From NCBI RefSeq assembly GCF_004010195.1, contig NC_057751.1:14339483-14378309 (forward strand): a stretch of 38,827 bases of DNA, written 5' to 3'. Under the pieces are notes generated by a model. The model saw nothing but the letters and a program-made list of their open reading frames with translations, had not been told where the DNA came from and made no database searches. The DNA is from Chiloscyllium plagiosum (lineage: Eukaryota). Shown here piece after piece: positions 1,491 through 29,984 of this stretch; the first letter of the stretch is position 1, and every line of letters starts with the position of its first letter. A program made the position numbers and the translations under genes.

Positions 1491-4400
1491 GGCTGATCAT
1501 CCAACTGTGTACCCTGTTCCTCATTCAATATGATCGTAGGCTGATCATCCAACTGTGTTCCCTGTTCCTCATTCCATATGATCATAAGCTAATCATCCAA
1601 CTGTGTTCCCTGTTCCTCATTCAATATGATCGTAGGCTGATCATCCAACTGTGTACCCTGTTCCTCATTCCATATGATCTTAGGGTGATCATCAAACTGT
1701 GTACCCTGTTCCTCATTCAATACGATCATAGGCTAATCATCCAACTGTCTTCCCTGTTCTTCATTCAATATGATTTTAGAGTGATCATCAAACTGTGTAC
1801 CCTGTTCCTCATTTCATATGATCTTAGGGTGATCATCCAACTGTGTACCCTGTTCCTCATTCAATACGATCATAGGCTGATCATCCAACTGTGTTCCCTG
1901 TTCCACATTCAATATGATCGTAGGCTGATCATCCAACTGTGTACCCTGTTCCTCATTCAATATGATCATAGGCTAATCATCAAACTGTGTACCCTGTTCC
2001 ACATTCAATATGATCGTAGGCTAATCACCAAACTGTGTACCCTGTTCCTCATTCAATATGATTGTAGGGTGATCATCCAACTGTACCCTGTTCCTCATTC
2101 AATTCGATCAAAGGCTGATCATCAAACCGTGTACCCTGTTCCACATTCAATATGATCATAGACTAATCATCCAGCTGTGTACCCTGTTCCACATTCAATA
2201 TGATCGTAGGATAATCATCCAACTGTGTACCCTGTTCCACATTCAATATGATCGTAGGCTGATCATCCAACTGTGTACCCTGTTCCACATTCAATATGAT
2301 CATAGGCTGATCATCCAACTGTGTTCCCTGTTCCACATTTAATATGATCATAGGCTGATCATCCAACTGTGTTCCCTGTTCCACATTTAATATGATCATA
2401 GGCTGATCATCCAACTGTGTTCCCTGTTCCACATTTAATATGATCGTAGGATAATCATCCAACTGTGTACCCTGTTCCACATTCAATATGATCGTAGGCT
2501 GATCATCCAACCGTGTACCCTGTTCCACATTCAATATGATCATAGGCTGATCATCCAACTGTGTTCCCTGTTCCACATTCAATATGATCGTAGGCTGATC
2601 ATCCAACTGTGTACCCTGTTCCACATTCAATATGATCGTAGGCTGATCATCCAACCGTGTACCCTGTTCCTCATTCAATATGATCATAGGCTGATCATCC
2701 AACTGTGTACCCTGTTCCACATTCAATATGATCATAGGCTGACCATTCAACTGTGTACCCTGTTCCACATTCAACATGATCGTAGGCTGATCATCCAACT
2801 GTGTTCCCTGTTCCTCATTCAATATGATCGTAGGCTCACCATCCAACTGTGTACCCTGTTCCTCATTCAATATGATCGTAGGCTGATCATCCAACTGTGT
2901 ACCCTGTTCCTCATTCAATATGATCGTAGGCTGATCATCCAACTGTGTACCCTGTTCCTCATTCAATATGATCGTAGGCTGATCATCCAACTGTGTACCC
3001 TGTTCCTCATTCAATATGATCGTAGGCTGATCATCCAACTGTGTACCCTGTTCCTCATTCAATATGATCGTAGGCTGATCATCCAACTGTGTACCCTGTT
3101 CCTCATTCAATATGATCGTAGGCTGATCATCCAACTGTGTACCCTGTTCCTCATTCAATATGATCGTAGGGTGATCATCCAACTGTGTTCCCTGTTCCAC
3201 ATTCAATATGATCGTAGGCTGATCATCCAACTGTGTTCCCTGTTCCACATTCAGTATGATCGTAGGCTGATCATCCAACTGTGTTCCCTGTTCCACATTC
3301 AGTATGATCGTAGGCTGATCATCCAACTGTGTTCCCTGTTCCACATTCAGTATGATCGTAGGCTGATCATCCAACTGTGTTCCCTGTTCCACATTCAGTA
3401 TGATCGTAGGCTGATCATCCAACTGTGTTCCCTGTTCCACATTCAGTATGATCGTAGGCTGATCATCCAACTGTGTACCCTGTTCCTCATTCAATATGAT
3501 CGTAGGGTGATCATCCAACTGTGTTCCCTGTTCCACATTCAGTATGATCGTAGGCTGATCATCCAACTGTGTACCCTGTTCCTCATTCAATATGATCATA
3601 GGCTAATCATCCAGCTGTGTACCCTGTTCCTCATTCAATATGATCATAGGCTAATCATCCAGCTGTGTACCCTGTTCCTCATTCAATATGATCATAGGCT
3701 AATCATCCAGCTGTGTACCCTGTTCCTCATTCAATATGATCATAGGCTAATCATCCAGCTGTGTACCCTGTTCCTCATTCAATATGATCGTAGGCTGATC
3801 ATCCAACTGTGTACCCTGTTCCTCAATCAATATGATTATAGGCTGATCATCCAACTGTGTACCCTGTTCCTCATTCCATATGATCATAGGCTGATCATCC
3901 AACTGTGTACCCTGTTCCTCATGTAATATGATCACAGGCTAATCATCAAACTGTGTACCCTGTTCCACATTCAATATGATCATAAGCTGATCATCCAACT
4001 GTGTACCCTGTTCCACATTCAATATGATCAGAGGCTGATCATCCAACTGTGTTCCCTGTTCCACATTCAGTATGATCGTAGGCTGATCATCCAACTGTGT
4101 TCCCTGTTCCACATTCAATATGATCGTAGGCTGATCATCCAACTGTGTTCCCTGTTCCTCATTCAACATGATCGTAGAGTGATCATCAAACTGTGTACCC
4201 TGTTCCTCATTCAACATGATCGTAGGCTGATCATCCAACCGTGTACCCTGTTCCACATTCAATATGATCAGAGGCTAATCATCAAACTGTGTACCCTGTT
4301 CCACGTTCAATATGTTTCGTCGGCTAATCATCCAACTGTGTACCCTGTTCCTCATTCAACATGATCGTAGGCTGATCAACCAACTGTGTTCCCTGTTCCA

Positions 4401-6070
4401 CATTCAATATGATCATAGGCTGATCATCCAACTGTGTACCCTGTTCCACATTCAATATGATCAGAGGCTGATCATCAAACTGTTTACCCTGTTCCTCATT
4501 CAATATGATCGTAGGCTGATCATCCAACTGTGTACCCTGTTCCACATTCAATATGATCGCAGGCTGATCATGAAACTGTGTACCCTGTTCCACATTCAAT
4601 ATGTTTCGTCGGCTAATCATCCAACTGTGTACCCTGTTCCTCATTCCATATGATCATAGGCTGATCATCCAACTGTGTACCCTGTTCCACATTCAATATG
4701 ATCATGGGCTGATCATCCAACTGTGTACCCTGTTCCTCATTCAATATGATCGTAGGGTGATCATCCAACTGTGTTCCCTGTTCCACATTCAATATGATCG
4801 TAGGGTGATCATCCAACTGTGTACCCTGTTCCTCATTCAATATGATCATGGGCTGATCATCCAACTGTGTACCCTGTTCCTCATTCAATATGATCGTAGG
4901 GTGATCATCCAACTGTGTTCCCTGTTCCTCATTCAATATGATCAGAGGCTAATCATCAAACTGTGTACCCTGTTCCTCATTCAATATGATCGTAGGCTGA
5001 TCATCCAACTGTGTACCCTGTTCCTCATTCAATATGATTATAGGCTGATCATCAAACTGTGTACCCTGTTCCTCATTCAATATGATCATCGGCTGATCAT
5101 CCAACTGTGTACCCTGTTCCTCATTCAATATGATCGTAGGGTGATCATCCAACTGTGTACCCTGTTCCTCATTCAATATGATCGTAGGCTGATCATCCAA
5201 CTGTGTTCCCTGTTCCTCATTCAATATGATCAGAGGCTAATCATTAAACTGTGTTCCCTGTTCCACATTCAATTTGATCGTAGGCTGATCATCCAACTGT
5301 GTACCCTGTTCCACATTCAATATGGTCGTAGGCTGATCATCCAACTGTGTTCCCTGTTCCACATTTAATATGATCGTAGGCTGATCATCCAACTGTGTAC
5401 CCTGTTCCACATTCAATATGATCGTAGGGTGATCATCCAACTGTGTTCCCTGTTCCACATTCAATATGATCATAGGCTAATCATCCAACTGTGTTCCCTG
5501 TTCCATATTCAATATGATCATAGGCTGATCATCCAACTGTGTACCCTGTTCCACATTCAATATGATCGTAGGCTGATCATCCAACTGTGTACCCTGTTCC
5601 ACATTCAATATGATCATAGGCTGATCATCCAACTGTGTACCCTGTTCCTCATTCAATATGATCATAGGCTGTTCATCCAACTGTGTTCCCTGTTCCTCAT
5701 TCAATATGATCGTAGGCTGATCATCCAACTGTGTACCCTGTTCATTCAATATGATCGTAGGCTGATCATCCAACTGTGTTCCCTGTTCCTCATTCAATAT
5801 GATCGTAGGCTGATCATCCAACTGTGTACCCTGTTCCTCATTCAATATGATCGTAAGCTGATCATCCAACTGTGTTCCCTGTTCCTCATTCAATATGATC
5901 GTAGGCTGATCATCCAACTGTGTTCCCTGTTCCTCATTCAATATGATCGTAGGCTGGTCATCCAACTGTGTACCCTGTTCCTCATTCAATATGATCGTAG
6001 GCTGATCATCCAACTGTGTACCCTGTTCTACATTTAACATTATCCTGGCTGCTCTAACTGTGTACCCCGT
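1490..6070. repeat. 48-bp tandem satellite, ~95 copies (ggctgatcatccaactgtgtaccctgttcctcattcaatatgatcgta)
   Basis: 48-bp period is visible throughout, with few indels and blocks of shared variants. The 16-aa repeat ORFs on both strands follow from the period being a multiple of 3. Confidence 0.98.
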
Positions 6071-6126
6071 TCCCACTTACTCCCATACCATTTGATCTCT
6101 TTAGCCCTCACAACTTGATTTACATC

Positions 6127-6272
6127 TAACATCCTCTGCTAACAGAGACGACTGCGTGTTTATGTTCCTGTGTATATAACATCCTCTCCTAACAGGGACG
6201 AGTGTGTTCATGTTCCTGTGTATATAACATCCTCTGCTAACAGAGACGACTGCGTGTTCATGTTCCTGTGTA
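6127..6272. repeat. Short tandem triplication of a ~49-50 bp unit (taacatcctctgctaacagagacgactgcgtgttyatgttcctgtgtata)
   Basis: Three near-identical copies starting at about 6127, 6177 and 6226. Confidence 0.9.
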
Positions 6273-6627
6273 AATCAGATGTCGATTTGAGAGTGATCTG
6301 AGAGTTTCCTGCTCACATTCTCTAATTTCATTCCGAGTTGTCCTGGCACATCTCTGGAGTAGCTGGGACTTGATCCTTGGACTCTGAAATGTGGGCACAG
6401 CCAGGACACCACAAGACCCCCTAGGGTTTACAGCATCTTATCTTTAAGGGAGTGCCCTCTTCCTGGAATGAGAGAGTGCTTTGAATTCACAAGCCAATCA
6501 CACTGGAATCCATTGTTCTGTTGGCGTCTCTGCTTCCTGGCTTTGTGCGTGTTTTACTGTTGCCACTCAACTCCCCCCGAGCGTTGCTCGTTCACTGATG
6601 GCTGATGGATTCCGCGACCATGCTCGT

Positions 6628-6635
6628 TGACGTGA
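6628..6635. promoter_or_regulatory. CRE-like site (TGACGTGA) in a locally CpG-retaining stretch
   Basis: 7/8 match to TGACGTCA. Several CpGs are retained at 6575-6695. Confidence 0.25.
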
Positions 6636-6975
6636 CAGCAGAGGCACTGGGGGCGAAGGTGACAATCAGGCGCCACTGTTCCTGTGCGTCGATTAGAAAG
6701 TGACAGAAATTGGTGAAACATCATGCTCACGGTCCGTGTGACCTTGTGTGGTCTGCATCAACCCCAATCTCTAGGTTTCCACAAGTACGTTCCCAGACAG
6801 TGCTCGCCACCAGAGTGAATTGTGGCCTCTCAGAATGAAGCCAGGAGGCCTTCCCAGTTGCAATATGCTGTGGTGATGATTTCCAGCCAGGATCTTTCAG
6901 AGTACGGAGACAGATGCTCCCCTCCTCCCTGACCCCCAGCCTGTGATTGTGTGCCAGGGTGCTCAGCGAGCTCTG

Positions 6976-7027
6976 ATTGGCCCTCCCAGGAACATTCTAG
7001 AATCTGCATTCTGGAACCTTCCAGAGA
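6976..7027. promoter_or_regulatory. CCAAT box (reverse) plus two tandem perfect heat-shock elements
   Basis: ATTGG at 6976-6980. gGAAc-aTTCt-aGAAt at 6989-7003 and aTTCt-gGAAc-cTTCc-aGAga at 7008-7027 are both canonical alternating nGAAn trimers. Confidence 0.6.
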
Positions 7028-7181
7028 ACAGCAGGTGCTCCAGGTGCCACTGGCTGTGAGGCAACGAGGTCAGGGACACGCTGCCAACGCCTCAGGCAGT
7101 AGGAACCACCATGGATAAATCCCACATGGATTCTGATCTCCTCCTTTCCTGGATTTGGGTCTTTGAGAGTACGTCCAGTTC

Positions 7182-7252
7182 ATGAGGGGAAAAATCTATC
7201 AGCAAAAGTCCAAGAAACGGGCTCGGCCAAGAGTTGCTCTGAATTCTAACAG
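7182..7252 (+). other. Candidate first (coding or non-coding) exon end: ATG 7182 open to splice donor AG|GTAAGG at 7252/7253 (MRGKIYQQKSKKRARPRVALNSN-R)
   Basis: Lies just downstream of the HSE/CCAAT cluster, with a good donor site and a basic NLS-like peptide. It overlaps the putative BEL gag Zn-knuckle remnant, so it may be exapted or coincidental. Confidence 0.25.
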
Positions 7253-7334
7253 GTAAGGAGTCTCAGTTCCCAACAATTCCATTTGTCAAGTCGAGTTTCG
7301 GAGTGTAGGAATTTGGTTGACCGCGCCTGGGGTT

Positions 7335-7348
7335 GTTTCCATGGCAAC
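7335..7348. promoter_or_regulatory. RFX X-box (GTTTCCATGGCAAC)
   Basis: Matches the X-box consensus GTYNCY-AT-RGNAAC at every position. Located ~310 bp downstream of the HSE pair. Confidence 0.55.
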
Positions 7349-8269
7349 TCGAAGAACATGGGCTTATCCCCCTCTTCCTGTTTGGATGCCCCTCTTGCCC
7401 CCAAACAGACCCCATAACCCCTCCATCAGTGAGACCACCTCTCAGAATTGAACTGTCTCTGCCCTTGCCTCAGCTCCATCCCCCACCCCACCCCCATCCT
7501 TGCCTTTGTGCGCGCTCTCTCTCTCTCTCTCTCCCTTATTCACAACTGGTTTACACCATTCGTCAAATTTCTGGTGCCTGTGCTGAATGCATTTGCTGTT
7601 CCTGAAAATGTTCTACCCCAATTTTACTTCAAAAGCTTTGCCAAATCAAAGTTCTGTTGGGGATCCTCACCTCTTACGCATATGTGAAAATTCTGTTCCC
7701 ACATGACATTGACAAGCAGCCATCAGCTGAATTGTGAATTTGGAAGTTCCTGTGAGGTCGAATGTCACCTCTGTTGTGAATACATCCACACTGCAAGATG
7801 AAAAGGCCCACTCAGTTTGACGAGAAAGCCTCAGGCATGGTATGCTTTGTATTAAACCTTCATTGCTTCCCTTCTCATGTCAATGGGCCTGAGAAACATA
7901 TTCTCCCAATTCGAGAACAACGTTTGGTGATGAACAGAATTGGGTCGCATTTGCAACTTCATTAAAAACAAATTCTCCAGAGATCTGTTTGAGGCGAAGA
8001 AAGCGTCAACAGCTTTATGGTCCAGGAGGAAAGGAAAATTATGGAACTTTTAAACGCCAAATTATCGACCAAGAATGGCCTGTTCAAGTCTTCATTGAGC
8101 TTCAGGGAAAAGGCTGATGGAAAGTTATCAGCTTTGAGCTCATCTACATGGAGGCAAGATGGAACACAAGCTGGGAAAAAGCTGTGACACTGCTGTAGTC
8201 AATAAACTCACTTGACAGTGGAGAGGGACATGTCATGGATTTTACTTTACCAGTCCAATGGGATTGGAT

Positions 8270-8850
8270 CAACATACTTCAGCTGTCCAGGACATTGGTT
8301 AGGCCACTGTTGGAATATTATGTGCAATTCTAATCTCCTTCCTATCGGAACAATGTTGTGAAACTTGAAAGGGTTCAGAAAAGATTTACAAGGATGTTGC
8401 CAGGGTTGGAGGATTTGAGCTCCAGGGAGAGGCTGAACAGGCTGGGGCTGTTTTCCCTGGAGAGTAGGATGCTGAGGGGTGACCTTATCGAGGTTTATAA
8501 AATCATGAGGGGCATGGATAGGGTAAATAGACCAAGTATCTTTCCTGGGGTGGGTGAGTCCAGAACTCGAGGGGCATAGGTTTAGGTTGAGAGGGGAAAA
8601 GAGACCCAAGGGGCAACTTTTTCAAGCAGAGGGTGGTCTGTGTATGGAATGACTTGCCAGAGGGAGTAGTGGAGGCTGGTACAATTACAGCATTGACAAG
8701 GCATTTGGATGGGTATATGAATAGGAAGGGTTTGGAAGGATATGGGCTGGGTGCTGGCAGGTGGGACTAGATTGGGTTCGGATATCTAGTCAACATGGAC
8801 GGGTTGGACCGAAGGGTCTGTTTCTGTGCTGTACATCTCTATGACTCTAT
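8270..8850 (+). mobile_element. CR1 LINE 3' fragment (ORF2 C-terminus, 3' UTR, microsatellite tail)
   Basis: LSRTLVRPLLEYYVQF*SP..KLERVQKRFTRMLPGLE..LFSLESRMLRGDLIEVYKIMRG. Ends ...gaagggtctgtttctgtgctgtacatctctatgactctat. Confidence 0.96.
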
Positions 8851-10543
8851 ACTGTGGTCACGTTGACCTGCACCCACACTGGCTGAATGGGAACTGGAGA
8901 AAACGCCGATGGAGAAATGCTCAGCTCGGTCAGAGAAACAATGGTCTCTTCAGTCATGGTTCCTGCGAGATGTTTGTTGATAAGTAATCGTTGAGCAGGT
9001 TTGTGTTCCTTCACTGTGCCAAACCCCTCTCTCGGAACATCTACTCTGCCTGAAGCACCAACATTGCCAATCATTTTCCTTGTACTCGCCAACTCCAAAA
9101 ATCCAGACTGTAGTTTCCTCCAAGACATATACATTTTGCTGCATTTGAGATGTTGCTGTTGGATGTGTTATTGATTTCAGTTATTAATGTGACACACGAT
9201 TTCAATTCAGCATCCAAGAGGATGGAGAGGAAGGGGGGAACGTTGTGTTGGACCTTCCACAGTGTGTTTAAATTCTTATATTCAGCAAAAGAATTGCAAG
9301 TCAAATCTTAGAAACAGTAATATTTGTTTATTGAACACAGTATTAGAGCAATAAAGTATCCTATAAACTAATGATAAACACTACAAATTATCTTATACTT
9401 GACTTAACTTTGTATAGTTAGATGCCACCTCACTGGAACGAGGCTGGGCTCCACAAGAGGTCTTTGTCTTCTGATGGACTTGGAGGTATCCTCTCTCTCT
9501 GATATTCTCGAGTTTGCACCCTGAGTGGGGTTTTCTGATGGTTCTTATCCTTTCAAGTCTTCGTGCCTTTTTGGGAGGGTCTTGAGGATCTGCCAATGGA
9601 TTGATCAGGTTCGATTCCATTATGGTAAGTGCTGGGTGCACATAACCTCGAAATAAGGGCGTGAGGTGCCTTCGTGTCTCGCGAATGACTTGATATTCCC
9701 GCGGGCGGTCTTCCATTGACCCATTCAAGTCTGACTTCAGCCATGTATTCTGCACACTTGCAGCATCACCTGTGGGAGCTGGGCCTGTCTGGAGTCTGTA
9801 GCATGTGAATGGATACCGTCACTTCAGTCAAGGCTGGGTTCCATTTCCCAGCATGCTCTAATCATTGTCCCTCTTTTGTAAACCCCCACGGTAAATTGAT
9901 TATTGTCCATCATAAGTTCATGATTTCAGGTGGCCCATCCAGCCATAGTTGCTTCATCAGCCTTTTAACTGTTGGGATAAATACACACCAGAACAGTTTC
10001 TGAACCGAATTGAGTGCTTGGTGTGCTGGTGAAACCTCTGTTCGAGGTAGGCTGTGGCAGTGTCACGCTGAGTGAGCAAGTCACTCTCGAATGTGATGTT
10101 CTCTCACAGAGCACAGTGAGCTGAGTGCTCCACACATAGTCCACGATCATTAATCGTAGTCCAGATACATCCACCTCCAAGGACCCCGAGAAAGACAAGG
10201 ACCAAAAGCCAAAACAGCAAGCCATGCAGAACAGCATGCTCTGATTCAGAACCGTTCCACGTAGCGAACATCTGACAGTGCTGCACTTGCTCATGACTGC
10301 TCAGATCTCCTGTTCCACTCTCCAGGTGTGTTCGGTAAACCCCCAACCTGCTGACACAGACACCAAGTGTGATAACCACTGAGTTACTCTTGGTGACAAA
10401 ACAAATGCTACTTCAAGATAGGGGAACATCAGTGGCAATTGCAGGGTCAGACAAACAAATGAGGGGATGGAATATTAACGACACACGTTTTGCAGCAATC
10501 AGTGAAACTTCAACTTGTACAGTTTACTAAATGTAATGCACTA

Positions 10544-10890
10544 CACGCTGGCTCAGCGGTTAGCACTGCTGCCTCACAGTACCAGGGACCTGGGTTCGAT
10601 TCCAGCCTCGGGCGACTGCCTGTGAGGAGTTTGCACATTCTCCCTGTATCTGCGTGGGTTTCCTCCAGATGCTCTGGTTTCCTCCCACAGTCCCAAAGGT
10701 GTGTGGGTCAGGTGAATTGGCGAGGCTAAATTGCCCATAGTGTCCTGGGTTGTACAGGCTAGATGGGTTTGACATGGGAAATGCAGAGTTACCAGGACAG
10801 GGGTTAGTCTGGGTGAGATGCTCTTCAATGGGTCAGTGCAGACTTGATGGACTAAGTGGCCTCTTTCTGAACTGTTGAGATTCTGTGACA
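10544..10890 (+). mobile_element. tRNA-derived SINE (HE1/V-SINE-like)
   Basis: A box tggctcagcggtt, B box gggttcgattcc, core gagtttgcacattctccc..tgcgtgggtttcctcc, and a CR1-like 3' tail. Confidence 0.93.
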
Positions 10891-12201
10891 CAGAAAAATG
10901 CTGTGTCCCATTTGTCCGTACAACTGTAATCTGTACAATCTTCTGTGTTTCAGACTGCCTGGCTATTTCCCTGACACAGGAAGCCTGTTTCCCAGGAATG
11001 TGGCACTCCTCAGGCTGTAGTTAATCTTGATCGTTTTATAACAGCAACGGAGAACTCCCAGGTTTGCCAAGAGCTGGCTTTATTTAATTCTGAGCAGCAT
11101 CAGACAGGGCACGTGAGTCATGGTGTGGCTGTCACCCTGAGGATGCTCTCTGCTCCCTAATCCGTGCGCTGAGCGTCCTGGCTGAAGCCTTAACCATCTT
11201 CATGTTTCGCCAAGTCCTGCAGAGTACATTGACAGCTTGAGCCCATCAGTTTCGGCTGAAGACACGGTCGGCCATTGCTTTGTGGCCTGGTCACTGGTGC
11301 AGAGAGTGACCGGTTGACTTTGGGTTTGAGTTCCTGCAGCCTCTGTTTCCTGGCACTGGGTCATCGGTGCAATTCCTGCTGCAGGGAGCCACACACCATC
11401 CGACACAGTCTGGGCTGCCCTTGGAGAATCGGCCACACTGCAGCTCCGTCCTTGCACCCGCTCCTTGAGTTTTTTTTCTGTCCACGTCAACACTTCCAAA
11501 TTATCCCGTGCCCACAATTTCAGCCTTTTGTATGACGTGGGAAACCAAAGACAAAGAAATTGATCCTGGTGCGCTGGAATATATTTTCCAGGATTCGCTG
11601 ACCCAGCAACTCTGGCCGAGTTCAGCAATAACTGCTCGAAACACCGACTGCAAGCTGAAATTGTCAGGTCTAGCGATCAGCCTGTTCTGTCAGCTCCATG
11701 TGCAAATGTTCTGACAGCCCTGACTTGCAGCTGGTGAGACCAGGGTAGGCGAGGCTTGAGGGGTTGCAGGGGGAGGGAATCTGCTGCGATTTTGAAAGGT
11801 GCTGGCCATTCAGATTCTCCTGATATCTGCGTGAACCACACGCACTCTGATCTCACACTGTAACTCAGTTGCCACATCCATCTGGCAGGAGGTCCTGCTC
11901 CATTTGCTGGGTCAAGAATCAGCGAGGTCCTCACCTGGGCACCAAATGAGTGAAAGTGACATCCTGCTGGGGTTCCCATCACCAATTCTGGGAGCTCAAA
12001 GTGGTTTGGGACTGATGACCCCTCCCCTAATGTGTTCACAAGCAACCCAACGGTTAGCTCCCTGGCACGGACTGTCTAAGCCCAACCCAGCAAGAAGACC
12101 ACTGAAGAACTGCTGGGGGACTTCTTGCCCCAGAGACTCTCAACTCGCCCCCACCCCTGCCCCTTCAGCCAAGGGGACCTCCTAATTGCTTGTCTTCAGT
12201 T

Positions 12202-12528
12202 GGGTGGCACGGTGGCTCAGTGGTGAGTACTGCGCCAAGGACTCAGGTTCGATTCCAGTCTCTGGCGACTGTCTGTGTGGAGTTGGCACATTCTCCCTGT
12301 GTCTGCATGGGTGCTCCGGTTTCCTCCCACAGTCCAAAGATATGCAGATGAGGGTGGATTGGCTGTGCTAAATCAGCCACAGTGTCCAGGGATGTGCAAG
12401 CAAGGTGGGTGAGCCATGGGAAATACAGGGATTAGTGGGGTGGGTCGAGGTGGGATGCTCTGTGGGCGGTCAGTGTTGACCCGATGGGCCGAATGGTCTG
12501 CTTCCTCAATCTCGGGCTTGTATGATTC
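12202..12528 (+). mobile_element. tRNA-derived SINE (HE1/V-SINE-like)
   Basis: gggtggcacggtggctcagtggt A box, ggttcgattcc B box, and the same core and tail as the 10544 copy. Confidence 0.92.
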
Positions 12529-12968
12529 ATCTGAGAAGGGCAAGAATGAGGTGGAGTGTAAAACTTGCCTGTTCTTCAGCTTAACCCTGAGGACTGGCTG
12601 GTTTACACATTAGATAGACTTGTTCTGAGCAGCTGAGCTGGAAGCAAGTGTTGGTCAATGAAGCAAATTTATGCCAGACGCCCCCAGCCCTCTCCTGAAC
12701 CCTCTGCTACAGCTGAGCAACTTGGCAGGGTCTGTGTGTGTCCCTCAGGTGTGAAATAGCATATTGGCTTCTCTGCAGTAATTGATTACATTTTCAGTGT
12801 TGTACTATTGATGAGTTCTGTAATTTGATCTGGTCAGTGTTTTTCACTGAAGGTCTGGTTCCCAGCTACATTTGGAAAAGAACGAAAAGCCATCCCAATA
12901 TATCTTGTCACGTTGTATCGGGGAGGGCAGAAAATGTTGTCCCTGAGATAATGTTACGAACAGTGACT

Positions 12969-13581
12969 TGTTATGGACCAGGCCCGACCCCCTCAAAGTG
13001 TATTCAGAAGGTTGTCTGGAACCTAACTTTTTCTTATTTTAAATGTTGATGAAAGGTGTAGCATTCCAGAGGCAATTCAATTGGTCATGTGACTCAACGT
13101 AAAGCAAAACACAATTTATTCGGAAACCCTCAGTAAAATACAACAAAAGAAAGAATAAAGAACTGGCTTAGCTGTAACTCTGTTGGGAAACTTAACAGGG
13201 TAATCGATTCAGTAACTATTGTGTTCCAATCCCATGAATACACCTCTTGGCAAAAGGCAAGTTTGGAAAATAGATTGTCTTGCATACAACTCTAACAGGA
13301 AGAGAACCTCCAGCTTTTTGCTGTAACTGAGAGAGGGGATAAAATAGCTTCCACTTCTTCAAGACGCCATCTCTTACTGCTGAAAGCCAGACTAAAAATC
13401 CTGGATCTGAGAGAGCTTGACCACACCCGTCCAGGCTGCTTCTACTGTTTCAACTTGGATAAAAGGAAAGCCAGCTGTTTATTTCTAGTCTTCAGTAGCT
13501 ATCTCAGCACCTCATACTTAAAACCTTCCTTTACCAAAAATCAAGGACAAGACAGTCTCTTAAGTCTGTGACATTGTCACA
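12969..13581 (-). mobile_element. Solo LTR (613 bp) with 4-bp target-site duplication GACT
   Basis: Starts TGTTATGG and ends TTGTCACA (TG..CA). GACT at 12965-12968 and 13582-13585. AATAAA on the minus strand near 13115-13120 suggests minus orientation. Removing it restores the reading LRTVT|ALNSVSKLHPM. Confidence 0.85.
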
Positions 13582-14361
13582 GACTGCACTGAATTCAGTC
13601 AGTAAACTGCATCCAATGGGGGAGGTATTTGGCCCAACTCATCACATCTGGCTCCCCATAGTACAGAGCCTATTTCTGATCAGGGCACCAGGACTGAAGG
13701 AACTCCTTCATGTGTTCCTGGCTGGGCGAGCATTGATTGTTCTTCAGAAGGTGGGATTAAACATACTTCTGAAACCACTGCATTCTAAGCAAGTGCTCCC
13801 CCTGAGGGTCAGGACTTTTACCCTGGGTTGACTGGTGAAGTTTGGGTTTGTGGTCCTTTCAGCAGAAAAGTGTTTCCTGGACTGGATTGCAATTTGTCAA
13901 ACCAGGAATGGTTTTCCTTGTGTCAAGAAAGCTCTGAAAGCTTCCAGTGCTGGCACTGTCGTGACAGTTGGAAGGATGTGAATTTCAGAATCAAATTATC
14001 ATCATGCACAACACATCAAGGATGGTTGAAGTAGGACTTTGAAAAGCGGACCAGATGTTTTGTTGAAGGGAAGGAAATTAGAGGGCGATGGGGGAGTGAA
14101 CTTGGAAAGGTCTTCCAACAGAATGAATGGTCTTTTGCTCATCAAATGTTTCATGAAAGGCAATTGCCCAATGAGGTGATGGGTTTCCCAAAGCGATGGT
14201 CAGGTCATGGGAGTCATGAATAGTACCTGAATGGGGAATTGTGAGCAAGCTCATCAGCAAACCGACATTCTGGGCACATCCCATCGTGGTGATAACTGGG
14301 GAGACTAGCACTTTCATCTCCTTTCCCAATGGCTTCCTGTCATTGTCAGACTTGACAAATA

Positions 14362-14390
14362 GACAGTAGACAATAGGTGCAGGAGTAGGC
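14362..14390 (-). mobile_element. Start of an antisense CR1-type 3' tail, truncated by the assembly gap
   Basis: gacagtagacaataggtgcaggagtaggc resembles the tail at 27835-27850 (gcaggagtaggc). Confidence 0.55.
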
Positions 14391-14890: not shown

Positions 14891-17800
14891 TGGGGTACGG
14901 GGTCCCTCACACACACTGACTCTCACTGGGGTACAGGTCCCTTACTAACATACACTGACTCTCACTGGGGTACCGGGTCACACACACGCACACACACTGT
15001 CTCTCACTGGGGTACGGGGTCCCTCACACACACTGTCTCTCACTGGGGTACAGGTCCCTTACACTCACACACACTGACTCTCATTGGGGTCCGGGGTCAC
15101 ACACACGCACGCTGACTCTCACTGGGGTACAGGTCCCTCACACACACATACACTGACTCTCATTGGGGTACGGGGTCACACACACTGTCTCTCACTGGGG
15201 TACGGGTCCTTCATACACACTGACTCTCACTGGAGTATGGGTCCCTCACACACACTGTCTCTCACTGGGGTACGGGTCCCTCATACACACTGACCTTCAC
15301 TGGAGTATGGGTCCCTCACACACTCTGTCTCTCACTGGGGTACAGGTCCCTCACACACACACACACACACACTGTCTCTCACTGGGGTACGGGTCACTCA
15401 TACACACTGACTCTCACTGGAGTATGGGTCCCTCACACACACTGTCTCTCACTGCGGTACGGGGTCACATACACGCACTGACTCTCACTGGGGTATAGGT
15501 CCCTCACACACACTGACCTTCACTGGGGTATGGGTCCCTCACACACACTGTCTCTCACTGGGGTACAGGTCCCTCACACAAACATACACTGACTCTCATT
15601 GGGGTACGGGGTCACACACACGAACACACACTGTCTCTCACTGGGGTATGGGTCCCTCACACACACTGACTCTCACTGGGGTACGGGGTCACACACACGC
15701 ACTCACACTGTCTCTCACTGGGGTACGGGTCCCTCACACACACTGACCTTCACTGGGGTATGGGTCCCTCACACACACTGTCTCTCACTGGGTCATGGGG
15801 TCCCACACACACAGTGACTCTCACTGGGGTCCGGGGTCACACACACACACACTGACTCTCACTGGGGTATGGGGTCCCACACACACACTGAATCTCACTG
15901 GGGTATGGAATCTCACACACACACTGACTCTCACTGGGGTATGGAGTCCCACACACACACTGACTCTCACTGGGGTATGGATTCTCACACACACACTGAT
16001 TCTCACTGGGGTATGGATTCTCACACACACACTGACTCTCACTGGGGTATGGAGTCCCACACACACACTGACTCTCACTGGAGTATGGGTCCCTCACACA
16101 CACTGTCTCTCACTGGGGTACAGGTCCCTCAAACACACATACACTGACTCTCATTGGGGTATGGGGTCACACACACGCACACACACTGTCTCTCACTGGG
16201 GTACGGGTCCCTCACACACACTGACCTTCACTGGAGTATGGGTCCCTCACACACACTGTCTCTCACTGGGGCATGGGGTCCCACACACACAGTGACTCTC
16301 ACTGGAGTATGGGGTCACATACACGCACACATACTGTCTCTCACTGGGGTACTGGGTCACACACACGCACACACACTGTCACTCACTGGGGTACGGGGTC
16401 CCTCACACACACTGACTCTCACTGGGGTATGGGGTCCCACACACACACTGATTCTCACTGGGGTATGGGGTCTCACACGCACTGACTCTCACTGGGGTAT
16501 GGGGTCCCACACACACAGTGACTCTCACTGGAGTATGGGGTCACATACACGCACACATACTGTCTCTCACTGGGGTACAGGGTCACACACACACACTGTC
16601 TATCACTGGGGTCCGGGGTCCCTCACACACACTGACTCTCACTGGGGTACGGGTCCCACAGACACACTGACACTCACTGGGGTATGGGGTCCCACACACA
16701 CACTGACTCTCACTGGGGTACGGGTCCCACAGACACACTGACTCTCACTGAGGTACGGGGTCTCACACGTACACTGATTCTCACTGGGGTATGGGGTCTC
16801 ACACACGCACTGATTCTCACTGGGGTATGGGGTCTCACACACACACTGATTCTCACTGGGGTATGGGGTCCCACACACACGCTGTCTCTCACTGGGGTAC
16901 GGGTCCCACAGACACACTGACTCTCACTGGGGTACGGGGTCTCACACGCACACTGATTCTCACTGGGGTATGGGGTCTCACACGCACTGACTCTCACTGG
17001 GGTATGGGGTCCCACACACGCGCTGTCTCTCACTGGGGTATGGGGTCCCACACACGCACTGACTCTCACTGGGGTATGGGGTCCCACACACACACTGACT
17101 CTCACTGGGGTATGGGGTCCCACACCCACTGACTCTCACTTGGGTACGGGGTCTCACACACACACACACACACACACACTGTCTCGCGTTGGGGTATGGG
17201 GTCTCACACACACACAAACACACTGTTTCTCACTGGGGTACGGGCTCACACACACACACTGTCGCGCGCTGGAGTATGGGGTCACACACACACACTGTCT
17301 CTCGCTGGGGTATGGGGTCCCACACACACACACTGACTCTCAGTGGGGTCCCAGACACACACTGACTCTCAGTGGTGTATGGGGTCCCACACACACACTG
17401 ACTCGCACTGAGGTACGGGGTCCCACACACAGTGACTCGCACTGGGGTATGGGGACTCACACACACACACTGTCTGTCACTGAGGTATGGGGTCCCACAT
17501 ACACACTGACTCTCACTGGGATACGGGGTCACACACACACTGTCTCTCACTGTGGTATAGGGTCACACACACACACTGTCTCTCACTGCGGTACTAGTCC
17601 CTTACACACTGACTCTCACTGGGGTACAGGGTCACACACACGCACGCACTGTCTCTCATTGGGGTATGGGGTCCCACACACACACTGATTCTCACTGAGG
17701 TATGGGGTCCCACACACACACTGACTCTCACTGGGGTATGGGGTCCCACACACACTGTCTCTCATTGGGGTATGGGGTCCCACACACACACTGATTCTCA

Positions 17801-18435
17801 CTGAGGTATGGGGTCCCACACACACTGTCTCTCACTGGGGTATGGGGTCCCACACACACACTGTCTCTCACTGTGGTACAGGGTCACACACACACACTGT
17901 CTCTCACTGCGGTACTAGTCCCTTACACACTGATTCTCACTGGGGTACGGGGTCACACACATGCACACACACTGCCACTCACTGGGGTACGCGGTCCCAC
18001 GCACCCCAGTGAGAGTAAATGTGTGAGGCCCCCTCCACCAGTAAGAGTCACTGTGTGCGTGGGGTATGGGGTCAAACACACACACTGTCTCTCACTGGGG
18101 TACGGGGTCACACACATGCACACAGACTGTCTCTCACTGGGGTATGGGGCCCCACACACACACACACTGTCTCTCACTGGGGTATGGGGTCCCACACACA
18201 CACTGTCTCTCACTGGGGTCCGGGGTCCCACACACACACACAAACTCACTGGGGTATGGGGTCTCACACGCACTGACTCTCACTGGGGTATGGGGTCCCA
18301 CACACACATTGATTCTCACTGGGGTACGGGGTCCCACACACACAGACTCTCAATGGGGTATGGGGTCCCAGACACACACTGACTCTCACAGGGGTATGGG
18401 GTCCCACATGCACTGACTCTCGCTGGGGTATGGGG
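14891..18435. repeat. G-rich minisatellite, unit ~31-40 bp (ctcactggggtatggggtcccacacacacactgact)
   Basis: About 100 visible tandem units with a variable (CA)n run and an inverted patch at ~18003-18057. Followed by a (CT)n(CA)n microsatellite to ~18480. Confidence 0.97.
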
Positions 18436-18469
<34 letters not shown>

Positions 18470-18616
18470 ACACACACACATGTTTGCTTCTGTCTGTTGT
18501 AACTGTCAACAACTCTTTTATGTTCAGTTTGTGAATGAAGGTTTTGCTTTCTGATTTACATGAATTGTAAAGCCTGAGATGTTTTTGAAGAGTCGTAGCT
18601 TTGGTTGTGGATCAGT

Positions 18617-18940
18617 AATTAGATTAGATTAGATTAGATTACTTACAGTGTGGAAACAGGCCCTTCGGCCCAATAAGTCCACACCGACCCGCCGAAGCGA
18701 AACCCACCCATACCCCTACATTTACCCCTTACCTAACACTACGGGCAATTTAGCCTGGCCAATTCACCTGACCTGCACATCTTTGGACTGTGGGAGGAAA
18801 CTGGAGCACCCGGAGGAAACCCACGCAGACACGGGGAGAATGTGCAAACTCCACGCAGTCGGTCGCCTGAGGCGGGAATTGAACCCAGGTCTCTGGCGCT
18901 GTGAGGCAGCAGTGCTAACCACTGTGCCACCGTGCCGCCC
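18617..18940 (-). mobile_element. Young full-length tRNA-derived SINE (HE1-like) with (TCTAA)n tail
   Basis: Minus strand starts gggcggcacggtggcacagtggttagcac with B box gggttcaattcc. CpGs are retained. Tail reads (ttaga)n on the plus strand. Confidence 0.96.
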
Positions 18941-18977
18941 ACGTTGTAAGATTGCTCACTGAGCTGGAAGGTTCGTT

Positions 18978-19020
18978 CTCAGATGTTTCGTCACCATGCC
19001 CAGTAACATCCTCAGCGAGC
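18978..19020 (-). ncRNA. Minimal type I hammerhead ribozyme motif (Penelope pLTR)
   Basis: Minus strand reads gctcg CTGAGGA t gttac-tgggcatg-gtgac GAAAC ATC tgag. Core CUGANGA and GAAA are intact and stems I/II pair. The helix III CG is mutated to CA. Confidence 0.6.
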
Positions 19021-19830
19021 CTCTGGTGAAGCGCTGGTGCTCTGTGCAGCTTGCTATTTATGTGGCTTGGTCTTTTGGTTCTTTTCCTCAGAGGTTGCTG
19101 AATGGGGTCCAAATTGATGTGTGTGTTATTGGAGGTCTGGTTAGAATGCCAAGCCTCTGGGTTTTCCCTTGCATGTCTCTGTTTGGCCTGTCCCAGGATG
19201 GATGCGTTGTCCCAGTCAAAGTGGTGCCCTACATTGTCTGTGATAAACACAGCCCACCAATTCTTAAACAACAAACCCAAACCAGGAGACACAGCACACC
19301 CAGAGACTTCAGCCACGCGACCAGATATCAAAGGCACCTCTGATATGACGATCAGACCACTCCAACCCATTGGCATCATGGAGCCCACAAACCTCCCAAC
19401 ACAGACACAGCTTCTGGTGAACCTGATGGACTCTATACCAACAACCAGCAGTACGAACATCATATCCAAAATACCCTGCAAGGACTGTAACAAACACTAC
19501 ATTGGACAGACAGACAGGAAACCAACCATCAGGATACACAAACACCCCAACTAGCCACCAAAAGACATGATCCTCTCTCACTAGTATCCTTACATACAGA
19601 TGAAGAAGGACACCACTTCGACTGAGACAACACATCCATCCTGGGACAGGCTAAACAAAGGGAATTCTGAGAGGTCTGGCATTCTCACCGGAACTCCATC
19701 AACAAACACATTGATCTGGACCCCATTTACCCAACCTCTCAGAAACAGAACTGGAAATGATGGCACCCACCACAACAGACCGAGACTCATAAATAGAAAG
19801 CGGGACTGAACACCAGCGCTTCACCAGAGG

Positions 19831-19872
19831 CTCACCGATGATGTTACCTCACATGGTGACGAAACGTCTGAA
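19831..19872 (+). ncRNA. Minimal type I hammerhead ribozyme motif, core mutated (CCGAUGA)
   Basis: ctca CCGATGA t gttacc-tcacat-ggtgac GAAACGTC tgaa. U4>C change in the core. Confidence 0.55.
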
Positions 19873-20254
19873 AACAAGTCTTCCAGCTCAGTGGGCAAAC
19901 TGACGAGTTTGTGTCTTTGGGGAGCAGGGTTGTGACATGGTGCTGATTGGTCGTCACTCTGGCTGGCCCCTCCATCTAGGTTTTAAGTAGTTCTGTTGCA
20001 GCGTTAACTGTGGCCTTTCAGAATTGTCCAATCTGGGCTTGCCCAGGAGTGCAGAAGGAAGATGGAGTGGAGTTCGAGGCGTTTGCTGTCATTGTTGTAA
20101 ATGTGGCGAAGGGAAAGTATTTTCAAATGAACAGCACTGTTAAATTATCAAAGCACTTTAAACATGCACTGGCTCACACACTGTCTCTCAGCATTGTTTC
20201 ATATTTCACCTCTTTTCCTAATCAACTGCTTCAGAGATGTCATTAGACACGTTT

Positions 20255-20320
20255 GGGACGTGAAACTGGGCCTCTCAGTCCACGGATAGGGGCACTACAA
20301 CTGTGCCACAAGAGGGCCCT
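20255..20320 (-). mobile_element. Short tRNA-like SINE head fragment
   Basis: Reverse complement ctcttgtggcacagttgtagtgcccctatccgtggactgagaggcccagtttcacgtccc. A similar copy lies at 21253-21322 on the plus strand. Confidence 0.6.
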
Positions 20321-21252
20321 CAAATCATTGCCATAACTTGGATAAATTAAACTTTTTAAAAAATTAGCCACTTTTTCTATTCAACCTGCTGTTGCCCAAA
20401 AATGGACCGACAGTGTAAATGGTTTAAACAGGGCTGTCGATAAGCAGTTTTGTGTCACATGGGAATAAGAGACAGAGGAAGGAGGTTGGAACCTGAGACC
20501 AGTCACTCTGTTTCTCCATTAATGAAGGGCAGTTCACACTGATGCTAAATTTGGTGCGCAAGTTGAGTGTCAAGAGTCACGATGTTTCTGGTAGGAAGGG
20601 AGGTGAGACCACAGAAGCAATGTTTTGCAGCTGCTGGAGGTCTGAAATCAGAACTGCAAGCTCTGGGAATGCTCAGGTTAGGCATGTTCCTTCACCCCTC
20701 CCTCCCTCCCTCAAGGATAGGCCATTGACCCAGGAAGTTAACCATGCCTCCCTCTCTCTCTCTCTCTCTGTCTGTCTGTCTCTCTGCAGATGCTGTCAAA
20801 CTTGCTGAGTATTTCCAGAATTATTCCCAGTTTCCTCCTGGCGTCAGGTTAGAACCCGATGATGAATTTGTATCGCATGTCTGTTGCACCTGCAGTGTTG
20901 GTATAAAGATAATTTATTGTGTAGTGGCTGTGCTCAGACTGTGAATAAGGCTGGCTTGGAACAAAGGCTTGTCCAAGATGTGTGTTTTGCAGCCTGACTG
21001 AGTAATCTAAAAGTTCTCTTCCTATCACTGAGGTTTTGAGAGAGAGAGAGAGAGTGTGTGTATGTGTAATCATAGAGTTGTGGTGGGGTGGGTGATGATA
21101 TGTCAATACAGTCTGAGCTGTCCCATTAGTGATTTGCATGCAGTTTGAGAGTGTGTCCTTCCCTCCTTTGTTCTGAGGTGTTGTGTGATGTAGCCAACCT
21201 GGTTAATTTAAAATAAAAGTTTAATTTGTCTTAGTTATGGCAATGATTTGGG

Positions 21253-21322
21253 AGCTCTCTTGTGGAACACAGTTGCACTGTGTCCCTATCCATGGACCGG
21301 GAGGCCCAGTTTCCGAGTCCCA
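21253..21322 (+). mobile_element. Short tRNA-like SINE head fragment
   Basis: ctctcttgtggaacacagttgcactgtgtccctatccatggaccgggaggcccagtttccgagtccca, the inverted partner of 20255-20320. Confidence 0.6.
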
Positions 21323-21631
21323 CTGATCCCAGAAGTTGGGTGAACTCTCCAGTGGGGCACATCCAAATGCTGTTGCTGAAATGAATGTGCATGTGATGGA
21401 GGAGGGTGGTGTGCTTGCACCTGGTACCACTTTGTGGGTGGGTTGCTGAAACACCATCACACTGTTCCTGAAAAGCCAGCTGACAGTGAGAGACTCTCTG
21501 ATAAAACAGGCCATTTGTTCAGCATGCCTTGTATTTTGCTGTGTATGAAATTTCCTGACCCTTTTCCTCAGTGGTAATGATGACTTGGTTTCGAAAGCAT
21601 TTTATGGCCAGTGAATCAATCAATCTGAGAC

Positions 21632-21910
21632 ATGGTTGGAGGATCTGAGCTACAGGGAGAGGCTGAACAGGCTGGGGCTGTTTTCACTGGAGCGTCGGAG
21701 GCTGAGGGGTGACCTTATGGAGGTTTACAAAATTATGAGGGGCATGGATAGGATAGTCTTTTCCCTGGGGTGGGGGAGTCCATAACTGGAGGGCATAGGT
21801 TGAGGGTGAGAGGGGAAAGATATAAAAGGGACCTAAGGGGCAACGCTTTCACACAGAGGGTGGTGCGTGTATGGAATGAGCTGCCAGAGGATGTGGTGGA
21901 GGCTGGTACT
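21632..21910 (+). mobile_element. CR1 LINE fragment
   Basis: Nearly colinear with 8404-8681 (ggatctgagctacagggagaggctgaacaggctggggctg...). Confidence 0.95.
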
Positions 21911-22017
21911 CGTGAACATCTCGCGGAGTGTGGTGGAGGCCGTGTTTAGTGAGTGCTACATTGCTGGAGTTATTGGCTTCCAAACGAGATACAGAAATTC
22001 AGATTATCTCAAGCAGA

Positions 22018-22090
22018 CATAGAGAGTCATAGAGATGTACAGCATGGAAACAGACCCTTCGGCCCAACCCGTCCATGCCGACCAGGTATC
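22018..22090 (-). mobile_element. CR1 3' tail fragment
   Basis: agagtcatagagatgtacagcatggaaacagacccttcgg.. is the reverse complement of the tail at 8795-8850. Confidence 0.9.
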
Positions 22091-22299
22091 ATGGCATTAC
22101 TATCACCACCATTGTGTGTCCTCAGCCGTAGGCAAGTCCTTGACACATCGTATCAAGAAACTGTGACACGCCTATTGTGCACCAAGGTGAGATATTATCG
22201 CTCAGTGCAAGAGGAATGAAGTTTTGTGCGCATTCTCCTTGAAGGCAGCTCCTTCGCACACTTTCTGTAACTCGCTAATCTCTGCCAACAACCAATAAC

Positions 22300-23300
22300 C
22301 TTCAGTTTTGAAACCATCCAACACTGACATTGTTTTCCTTCCCTGAAATTTCCTGTTCCCCTGCTTTTTCCCCACTCCCTTTGATTCTTTTCGGCCCAAG
22401 GACGGTATCCAATTCCTTACCGAAAACGGTGAATGTTGGCATCTCCGCTACCTTCTGTAGCAGAGGGCTCCACCAGCTCACCAGGATTTGGTGAAAAATT
22501 CCTCTTTGTGTCAGTCCCATGTCATTAGACTGTGACCCCCTGGTTCGAGACTCTTTACTCATCAGGAACTTTCACCCTGTCTCATCCCTGTTGGAATTTG
22601 ATGGGTTTCTCTGAGATCCCCATCCCCCCTTCCTCATTCTTCTAAACTCCCAATGAATATTATCCTCATCTGATCCAGTCTCTCTCCATCCCAGGAATCC
22701 GTCTGGCAAAGCCTTCGCTGCCCTCCCTCCAACACCAGAACATCCATCCTCAGATAAGGAGACCCCAAGCCGCGCACGCCCACAATACCCGCTCTGTCCA
22801 TCCCTGCTCCTACACTCCAATCCTCTCACCATGGAGGGCCCACCATCCCATTGGCCTTCCTCACCACCTGCCACTCCTGCAAGGCTGTCTCTCAGCCAGT
22901 GGGGGAGGAGGGACACCCAGGTCTCACTGCAGCTCCCATTTCCCCACTCAGGTCATAATCTGCCCTTGTTTCTGCAACCAAAGTGGATGAGCTCACACTG
23001 ATGCACAGTAAACTGCATCTGTCACACATTTGCCCACTGGTCTGTCCAAATCTCACTGCAACATCTCTGCATCCTCCTCACAACTCACCCTCTTCCCCCC
23101 AGCTGGTGTTGTCTTCATTAATTCCCTCACCGAAATCATTAAGATACATTCGAAAGAGCAGGGAGTTGGGCATTGATCCCTGCAGGACCTCCCTCGTCAC
23201 TACCTGCCACTCAGAAAAAGACCCCTTTATTCCTTCTCATTTTTTTTTCCTGTCTGCTAACTGTCCAGATTAGTAAACTGCCCGTAATCCCATTTTGTTG
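22300..23300 (-). mobile_element. Old degenerate CR1-type LINE fragment
   Basis: Minus translation gives QILVSWWSPLLQKVAE..FGKELD (CR1 C-terminal-like) and upstream RT-like remnants (ggcattgatccctgcaggacctccctcgtcac..). Confidence 0.7.
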
Positions 23301-23706
23301 TAATTCCTCTTATTGCTGTGCCCTTGTGTGCTCCTGGTATAATTGACCCAGTGAAATTGCCGTCAGCATTATCGTCCTCAATCACTGCACTTCTCTCAAA
23401 TTCGGATAGACATGTTCAAGATGGCCACGTCCTCTTTGCTCATTTCCTCAGCAGCTTGGGAGCCAGCACTTCCTGTTTGCAGAACTTTGTGGCCCATTGT
23501 CACTCATTCCCCTTTGTTTCGACACACATGAGGGTGATCCTTCCCTGTTTAATCAAATCTCTGCACGTATCACATTGCTTTTTCAGTTCCTCACTCTCTC
23601 GCTAACTCCTGCGTCAAGAGGCTGCATTTCAGCTTGCCTTCCTGTCCCGACTGTCCATTCGCTCCTTCCTTCCATCCTTTCCAACATGGCCGTCATTTCC
23701 CTAGTT

Positions 23707-23933
23707 GTCGAGAGGGTGTTGCTGGGAAAGCGCAGCAGGTCAGGCAACTTCCGAGGAGCAGGAGAATTGATGTCTCGGGCCAGAGCCCTTCATCACGAAT
23801 AATGATTCCTGAAGAAGGGCTCCAACCCAAAACATCGATTCTCCTGCTCCTCGGATGCCGCCTGACCTGCTGCACTTTCCCAGCAACACCCTCTCGACTC
23901 TGATCTCCAGCATCTGCAGACCGCACTGTCTCC
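23707..23933. mobile_element. Palindromic Penelope-derived pLTR pair (~92-bp arms, 4-nt loop) with two decayed hammerhead motifs
   Basis: 23707-23800 is the reverse complement of 23805-23898. Plus strand: CTGAAGA aggg-ctccaa-ccc AAAACATC. Minus strand: GTGATGA aggg-ctctgg-ccc GAGACATC. Tail tctgatctccagcatctgcagac is shared with 30383-30417 and 36780-36803. Confidence 0.85.
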
Positions 23934-27030: not shown

Positions 27031-27136
27031 TGTACATCTTCATCAAATCTTCTCTTCAAGTGCAGAGAGCAAACCCAGTACCTGCTGTCTGAAGCCCCAT
27101 GTCCTCGCTGCACTTTCCAATCAATCACTGACTTCT

Positions 27137-28440: not shown

Positions 28441-28448
28441 TTCTCAAG

Positions 28449-29875: not shown

Positions 29876-29984
29876 GCCAGTATTGCTTGCTTTTTTTACC
29901 AACTTTGGAATGCACTCCACTCCATCCCAATCTTCGTCTTGTCTCGTTTCAAACCTCAGTCCCTACGTGTGCTATGATCTCGAT

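What the first reader, a model, noticed from the sequence alone, without database searches (positions are those of the whole stretch)
6570..7350. Heat-shock/RFX/CRE promoter-like module sitting inside a fossil retrotransposon gag
Seen: within ~750 bp there are a CRE-like TGACGTGA (6628), a reverse CCAAT (6976), two perfect three-unit HSEs separated by only 4 bp (6989-7003, 7008-7022), a consensus splice donor (7253), a perfect RFX X-box (7335-7348) and locally retained CpGs. Each HSE fixes 9 bases and the X-box fixes 9 and constrains 3 more, so this cluster is unlikely to be chance. Established: HSF1/HSF2 bind nGAAn trimers, RFX factors drive ciliary and spermatid genes, and CREM acts via CRE. 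Inference: the surrounding sequence reads as decayed BEL/Pao gag, yet these motifs are pristine. That suggests a stress- or germ-line-responsive promoter/enhancer built in and selected from an ancient TE, driving a + strand transcript.
Basis: partly seen in the sequence, partly recalled or inferred. Interest (0 to 1): 0.75.

Follow-up and report, generated by a model that had tools for sequence, protein, structure and literature searches.

The report
Heat-shock/RFX motif cluster, not gag-derived
Two strong heat-shock-factor sites and an RFX site really do sit close together in this shark-like DNA and look like a gene switch, but no transcript could be tested and the claim that they lie inside a fossil retrotransposon gag gene found no support.

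Summary
All motifs are at the stated places. Only three carry weight: the two perfect HSEs, the only ones in the window, and the X-box. In 0 of 2000 shuffles did two HSEs fall within 50 bp, or an HSE within 750 bp of an X-box. The CRE-like site, CCAAT and donor are at or near chance level.

The BEL/Pao gag origin was tested with Pfam, a 1.84-billion-protein search and purpose-built BEL profiles; the module scored like control DNA. A weak BEL-like relic of the protease-to-RT linker lies downstream at about 7880-8112 (+): not gag, and not under the motifs.

No transcript test was possible. No host coding exon was found. Motif conservation is untested in practice (P=0.44).

Best reading: a single-copy, TATA-less HSF plus RFX promoter or enhancer of an unidentified gene (about 0.5). 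Main rival: a neutral cluster, with the HSE pair made by one inverted duplication. Known kind of element; exaptation from gag is unsupported.

The parts
6339..6385 (.). Short piece of an old, abundant interspersed repeat (SINE-like by recall); left boundary of the unique stretch
   Evidence: Many contigs of run X1 match only here, with loose ends; weak in-window copy at 31700-31737
6550..6760 (.). Locally CpG-rich patch (13 CpG, o/e 0.85)
   Evidence: 1 of 268 overlapping control tiles as high
6628..6635 (+). TGACGTGA: 7 of 8 to a CRE, exact match to the UPRE consensus TGACGTGG/A; chance-level on its own
   Evidence: UPRE consensus from PMC8301375 passages
6976..6980 (-). CCAAT box, 8 bp from HSE1; chance-level on its own
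6989..7003 (.). HSE1, perfect three-unit nGAAnnTTCnnGAAn, followed by an imperfect fourth unit
7008..7022 (.). HSE2, perfect three-unit nTTCnnGAAnnTTCn; one base out of phase with HSE1 and 12 of 15 identical to its reverse complement
7111..7185 (+). ATG in a strong Kozak-like context opening a 24-codon ORF that stops before the donor (would be a uORF if transcribed)
   Evidence: use not shown
7182..7252 (+). Second ATG, open for 23 codons up to the donor (phase 2); no homologue found
7250..7258 (+). Consensus-like splice donor CAG|GTAAGG; use not shown
   Evidence: no joint seen
7335..7348 (.). RFX X-box-like site, 13 of 14 to the palindrome; the only one in the window
7880..8112 (+). Weak relic resembling the BEL/Pao protease-to-RT linker (pol side, not gag), with two in-frame stops
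   Evidence: Best of 1122 tiles in 3 overlapping profiles, E 0.12, 0.011 and 0.68; best reversed decoys E 1.0-3.9; 27-30 bits, 0 of 170 controls as high, but picked after the fact
8240..8850 (+). 3' part of an abundant LINE (CR1/L2-like by recall) downstream of the relic; limits approximate
   Evidence: In-window copies 85-90% alike (pairs I1, I5, I9-I11); RT-like reading frame 8334-8579

Best explanation
A single-copy, TATA-less cis-regulatory module (promoter or promoter-like enhancer) read by HSF and RFX factors, belonging to a gene or long non-coding RNA that is not identified in this window. Proposed working: activated HSF1, or HSF2 in development and germ line, trimerises and loads on the two adjacent HSEs. 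Their 4-bp gap breaks the 5-bp register, so they would take two separate trimers. NF-Y at the adjacent CCAAT and an RFX dimer about 310 bp away would keep the site open and tie it to ciliated or germ cells. A start shortly 3' of the HSEs and a first exon ending at 7252 is the simplest layout. Shown: the motifs, their rarity, single-copy state at 85% identity. Inferred: binding, direction, transcript, tissue. The module is not detectably derived from BEL/Pao gag.
For: HSE pair in 0 of 2000 shuffles and HSE plus X-box in 0 of 2000; analytic 1.7e-7 per window and 0.02 per 4-Gb genome. Both HSEs match the consensus used for fish chaperone promoters (PMC6836667 passage). Functional human X-boxes lie mostly within 500 bp either side of a start site (PMC5838959 passages), which fits an X-box about 310 bp from the HSEs. 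One contig per place in run X1 and no second copy in the window. No listed variant falls in a motif base.
Against: No CpG island at the HSEs or X-box (o/e 0.38) and no TATA or GC box. No coding exon of a host gene found: 0 Pfam families in six frames of about 24 kb and 0 PDB matches in three + frames of 6270-14390 and 18451-33449; long frames with stops are an insensitive query. The 526-base contig of run X2 runs unbroken from 6738 across both HSEs to 11 bases past the donor with no joint; the run's kind is not on record, so this weighs little. Zero variants in 53 motif bases has P=0.44 by chance. The two HSEs are 12 of 15 inverted copies and may not be independent.
Confidence: 0.5

Rival explanations
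1. Neutral cluster: one chance HSE was copied as a short inverted repeat by template switching, giving the second HSE for free, and the X-box and the other motifs are coincidence in old, decayed repeat-derived DNA.
For: HSE2 is 12 of 15 identical to the reverse complement of HSE1 around a 4-base loop. CRE and CCAAT are chance-level, the donor borderline. No host exon was found. The window is mostly satellite and transposon debris.
Against: Nine of the 12 matches are forced by the HSE consensus itself; only 3 of 6 free positions match. The hairpin is not unusually stable (z -1.56; 15 of 200 shuffles fold as well). Even one HSE plus an X-box within 750 bp occurred in 0 of 2000 shuffles.
Confidence: 0.3
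2. The motifs are the native promoter of an old mobile element of another class (LTR or DNA transposon) that has decayed beyond recognition; they came with the element and may or may not serve the host.
For: Transposons can carry HSEs ready-made (Helitrons, PMC6927752 abstract). The module is flanked by repeat debris, and a CpG-rich patch of unknown origin lies at 6550-6760.
Against: No second copy at 85% or more in run X1 or in the window. No poly(A) signal in 6300-7850 and no partner LTR. Logan contigs collapse near-identical copies, so copies within a few percent are not excluded.
Confidence: 0.12
3. One reading: the module lies within the gag/knuckle/protease part of the BEL/Pao element whose linker survives at 7880-8112, and the motifs were built there and kept by selection.
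For: A BEL-like relic exists on the + strand about 530 bp downstream of the X-box, and collinearity would place the module in the gag end, knuckles and protease. One C-x2-C-H stretch ends at 7050 near the expected diagonal. Natural BEL elements do not carry HSE pairs as by-products: 3 single HSEs, 0 pairs and 1 X-box in 46 elements, 111,654 bases; so if the origin held, the motifs would be new.
Against: Banded collinear score in 6430-7370 is below the control median (64 of 98 controls as high, both profiles). Protease-start test: 154 of 170 and 67 of 170 controls as high; knuckle test: 31 of 170 and 103 of 170, although these profile parts are about as informative as the linker that was detected. 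The 7540-7875 stretch next to the relic also gives no signal. Pfam and phmmer are blank.
Confidence: 0.08

Closest known systems
HSF1/HSF2-bound heat shock elements of vertebrate chaperone promoters (consensus GAAnnTTCnnGAA; PMC6836667 passages seen, PMC8379338 start of abstract seen)
   Same: Two perfect three-unit HSEs beside a CCAAT box.
   Different: No chaperone or other coding exon was found, there is no TATA box or CpG island, and binding is untested.
RFX X-box promoters of human RFX target genes (PMC5838959 passages seen)
   Same: Near-palindromic 14-bp X-box within 500 bp of the presumed start region.
   Different: No start site mapped, no target gene known; sits beside an HSE pair.
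Helitron-borne HSEs that rewire the Caenorhabditis heat shock response (PMC6927752, abstract and outline seen)
   Same: The idea of HSEs inside transposon-derived DNA regulating host transcription.
   Different: There the HSEs are many and family-borne, with binding and induction shown. Here the site is single-copy, no element could be assigned under the motifs, and nothing functional is shown.
BEL/Pao (Belpaoviridae) LTR retrotransposons of fish and invertebrates (DUF1759 gag, Peptidase_A17)
   Same: A weak match of 7880-8112 to the protease-to-RT linker.
   Different: No gag, knuckle, protease, RT, RNase H or integrase match in the module or significantly anywhere else in the window; no LTR pair.

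Membership tests
BEL/Pao gag relic (for 6570-7350) | DUF1759 gag domain | tested here: not met
   0 Pfam families in six frames and in short open frames; custom profile zone scores 11.2 (-) and 14.2 (+) against control median 13.9
BEL/Pao gag relic (for 6570-7350) | Triple Cys/His zinc-knuckle region | tested here: inconclusive
   Minus strand 6680-6575 scores 21.3 bits (3 of 254 controls as high, picked after the fact), but the same tiles rank nearly as well when reversed, so composition can explain it; + strand knuckle test not above controls
BEL/Pao gag relic (for 6570-7350) | Collinear gag-protease-linker order continuing into the relic at 7880-8112 | tested here: not met
   panel limited to the lineage caught by one RT motif and its fish relatives, so other BEL/Pao lineages were covered only by Pfam
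BEL/Pao element (for 7880-8112) | Similarity to the BEL polyprotein | tested here: inconclusive
   Top of 1122 tiles in 3 non-independent profiles, E 0.011-0.68; phmmer and word search blank
BEL/Pao element (for 7880-8112) | RT, RNase H (Peptidase_A17), integrase and paired LTRs | tested here: not met
   Best pol-profile tile E about 1; no repeat partner in the window
HSF-regulated promoter | At least three alternating nGAAn units | tested here: met
   Two such sites
HSF-regulated promoter | HSF occupancy and stress- or development-dependent transcription | not testable with these tools
   No ChIP or heat-shock data offered; no read of X5 or X6 lay on the stretch, which the tool marks as no test
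RFX target promoter | X-box motif | tested here: met
   13 of 14 to the palindrome; P=0.006-0.0185; consensus recalled, not taken from a matrix
RFX target promoter | X-box within about 500 bp of a mapped start site and conserved across species | not testable with these tools
   No start site data and no other shark genome held
Multi-copy LTR or transposon promoter | Other family copies in the genome | tested here: inconclusive
   One contig per place at 85% in run X1, with a hole over the HSEs; near-identical copies would be collapsed and copies under 85% unseen

The most novel reading that the evidence does not exclude
A shark-specific stress and germ-line promoter assembled de novo inside the coding region of a dead BEL/Pao retrotransposon: a new HSF double site plus an RFX box that starts a spliced transcript, while the rest of the element decayed until only a short linker relic is recognisable.
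Probability: 0.07. Interest if true: 0.65.

Novelty: new member of a known kind. Interest (0 to 1): 0.3.

Why it matters
If functional, it is a compact, testable site where HSF and RFX inputs could meet in a cartilaginous fish, a group for which my searches turned up no description of such an element. That would be a useful example, not a new principle: HSE promoters, X-box promoters and transposon-borne HSEs are all known. It would be more striking only if the BEL/Pao coding origin held, and the tests here do not support that.

Tried and rejected
No whole genome is held, so no genome-wide copy count or motif background was possible.

RNA: no RNA holder listed. Single-cell poly(A) runs X5 and X6 (one sample; about 2% and 6% of each run read) laid 0 reads: no test. 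Runs X1 and X2 have no kind on record. X2 covers 1138 of 1971 bases from only 97 Mb of contigs; this is unexplained and not used as evidence of expression, since holders are picked for holding the stretch. Only 4 of the 16 listed runs could be laid.

Protein searches: one + frame of 6292-8262 against 1.84 billion representatives gave 0 hits; the other five frames were not searched there. Word searches of 7893-8114 (+) and 6557-6757 (-) gave nothing. Pfam gave 0 families on long frames; that scan is weak on fossils, since it also missed a by-eye Harbinger-like relic while finding an intact RT piece. tblastn with 88 and with 120 BEL proteins had no hit in the module below E 0.3. No language-model look-alike result was obtained.

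My own first idea that 7800-8200 is a Gypsy-type gag came from recall, could not be tested (0 loci) and was dropped for the BEL linker match. By-eye BEL-like words inside the module did not survive scoring.

Rfam: two weak matches far below their gathering scores, neither in the module. A BEL RT motif scan of viral contigs gave 14 unrelated loci. Earlier findings: nothing near, alike or on BEL; three unrelated promoter or gene notes in the same genome.

Papers: passages of PMC8301375, PMC5838959 and PMC6836667; abstract and outline of PMC6927752; all others listing and start of abstract only. No supplements were read; repeat annotations in shark genome supplements could bear on the origin.

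Full report
Setting. The window is animal DNA made mostly of satellites (48-bp array 1491-6073, 36-bp array 14891-18435), a 500-N gap and interspersed repeats.

Observation. The two HSEs are the only perfect three-unit sites in 38.8 kb and the X-box is the only one. In 2000 dinucleotide shuffles of the 28,391 non-tandem bases, two HSEs never fell within 50 bp and an HSE never fell within 750 bp of an X-box; the analytic rate of the triple is 1.7e-7 per window. The other listed features add little. The CRE-like octamer is expected 1.25 times; it is an exact UPRE by the consensus in PMC8301375 (passages). CCAAT is under-represented. Two other + strand donors are as good or better. CpG retention is confined to 6550-6760 and absent around the HSEs. 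Two cautions apply: the motifs were chosen after the fact, and HSE2 is 12 of 15 identical to the reverse complement of HSE1, though only 3 of the 6 free positions match and the hairpin is not unusually stable.

Is the ground a BEL/Pao gag? Pfam found nothing in six frames, and phmmer of the most suggestive frame against 1.84 billion proteins found nothing. To these I added the best 120 of 264 relatives, fish where named. The 22-sequence gag-protease profile detected 168 of 191 held-out 60-residue tiles from elements under 45% identical to the training set, and 13 of 22 naturally broken loci. Against 1122 window tiles, no tile in the module was significant in any profile; the best had E about 2-6. 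Frameshift-tolerant scoring gave a mild knuckle-like score on the minus strand at 6680-6575 (3 of 254 controls as high), but reversed decoys of the same tiles rank nearly as well, and the gag zone it would imply scores below the control median.

A BEL-like relic nearby. The top tile in three profiles is 7880-8112 on the + strand, matching the linker between protease and RT (E 0.12, 0.011, 0.68; best reversed decoys E 1.0-3.9). It exceeds 52 of 52 window controls and 29 of 30 shuffles, and 170 of 170 controls, where it was picked after the fact. Tested directly on that diagonal, the module scores below the control median (64 of 98 controls as high). The protease-start and knuckle columns, about as informative as the linker, give nothing. 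The adjoining 7540-7875 stretch is blank too, so deep decay cannot be excluded, and my panel covers one BEL lineage group. The gag origin is unsupported, not disproved. Natural BEL elements do not carry such pairs as coding by-products (0 pairs in 46 elements).

Copies, variation, expression. Laid at 85% identity, run X1 gives one contig per place except for a 47-base repeat piece at 6339-6385, so there is no moderately diverged family; near-identical copies would be collapsed, and X1 has a hole over the HSEs. Across X1 and X2, 14 listed variant sites in 925 covered bases miss all 53 motif bases, which has P=0.44. X2's contig 6738-7263 crosses both HSEs and the donor without a joint, but neither run's kind is on record. 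The two single-cell RNA runs gave no test. No host exon was found by Pfam or PDB searches; 33450-38720 was covered by Pfam only. The Kozak-context ATG at 7111 stops after 24 codons, and an ATG at 7182 is open to the donor.

How it most likely works. I put 0.5 on a real HSF plus RFX promoter or enhancer: two HSF trimers on out-of-register HSEs, NF-Y beside them, an RFX dimer about 310 bp away. That distance lies within the 500-bp window where human functional X-boxes cluster around start sites (PMC5838959 passages). It would drive a first exon ending at 7252 whose downstream exons lie outside the window or are non-coding. Only the motifs and their rarity are shown; the rest follows from known HSF and RFX biology or is inference. 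Rivals: a neutral cluster helped by an inverted duplication (0.3), the native promoter of some other decayed element (0.12), exaptation within BEL coding sequence (0.08).

Comparison and verdict. It works like an ordinary HSE/X-box promoter, and transposon-borne HSEs are known from Helitrons (PMC6927752 abstract). Searches found no paper on this locus or on a BEL-derived HSF/RFX promoter; the library lacks most subscription papers. Verdict: a real and uncommon motif cluster, function untested, gag origin unsupported. New member of a known kind; interest 0.3.

Noticed in passing
window 7880-8112 (+): Short relic resembling the BEL/Pao protease-to-RT linker, with a LINE piece starting about 130 bp downstream; borderline statistics.
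   Followed up: yes
window 6308-8025, run X2: A run with only 97 Mb of contigs covers 1138 of 1971 bases in three pieces. It could be an RNA or chromatin library, an enriched library, or a sign of near-identical copies. Kind not on record; unexplained.
   Followed up: partly
window 6470-6960 and 7691-8228, run X1: Contigs differ from the window at about 1.8% (9 of 491, 9 of 538), and from X2 at 6 listed sites in about 220 shared bases; a divergent haplotype, a related population or a collapsed duplicate.
   Followed up: no
window 6550-6760: CpG-rich patch (o/e 0.85) holding the UPRE/CRE-like octamer and a Cys/His-rich 67-codon minus-strand frame without homologues.
   Followed up: partly
window 35805-36834 (-): Two long open frames (175 and 100 codons) in non-tandem DNA that look to my eye like pieces of an envelope- or glycoprotein-like gene; no Pfam match for either and no PDB match for the longer.
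   Followed up: partly
window 9393-10412 (-): Open frames of 141 and 102 codons, one with a hydrophobic stretch; origin unknown, no real Pfam match.
   Followed up: partly
window 36900-37505 (-): Decayed Harbinger-like transposase by recall; not detected by Pfam.
   Followed up: partly
window 18946-19904 and 30006-30557: Penelope/GIY-YIG-like relics by recall; the first is arranged as inverted partial copies (pairs I4, I12, I13).
   Followed up: no
window 25546-26830 (-): LINE fragment with a recognisable reverse transcriptase domain (PF00078, E 1.6e-19).
   Followed up: partly
window 1491-6073 and 14891-18435: Large satellite arrays: 48-bp unit, about 96 copies, 92% matches; 36-bp unit, about 96 copies, 78% matches.
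   Followed up: no
window 23707-23898: Head-to-head inverted repeat of 94-base arms, 87% complementary, 4 bases apart (I7); shows that short-loop inverted repeats occur in this window.
   Followed up: no
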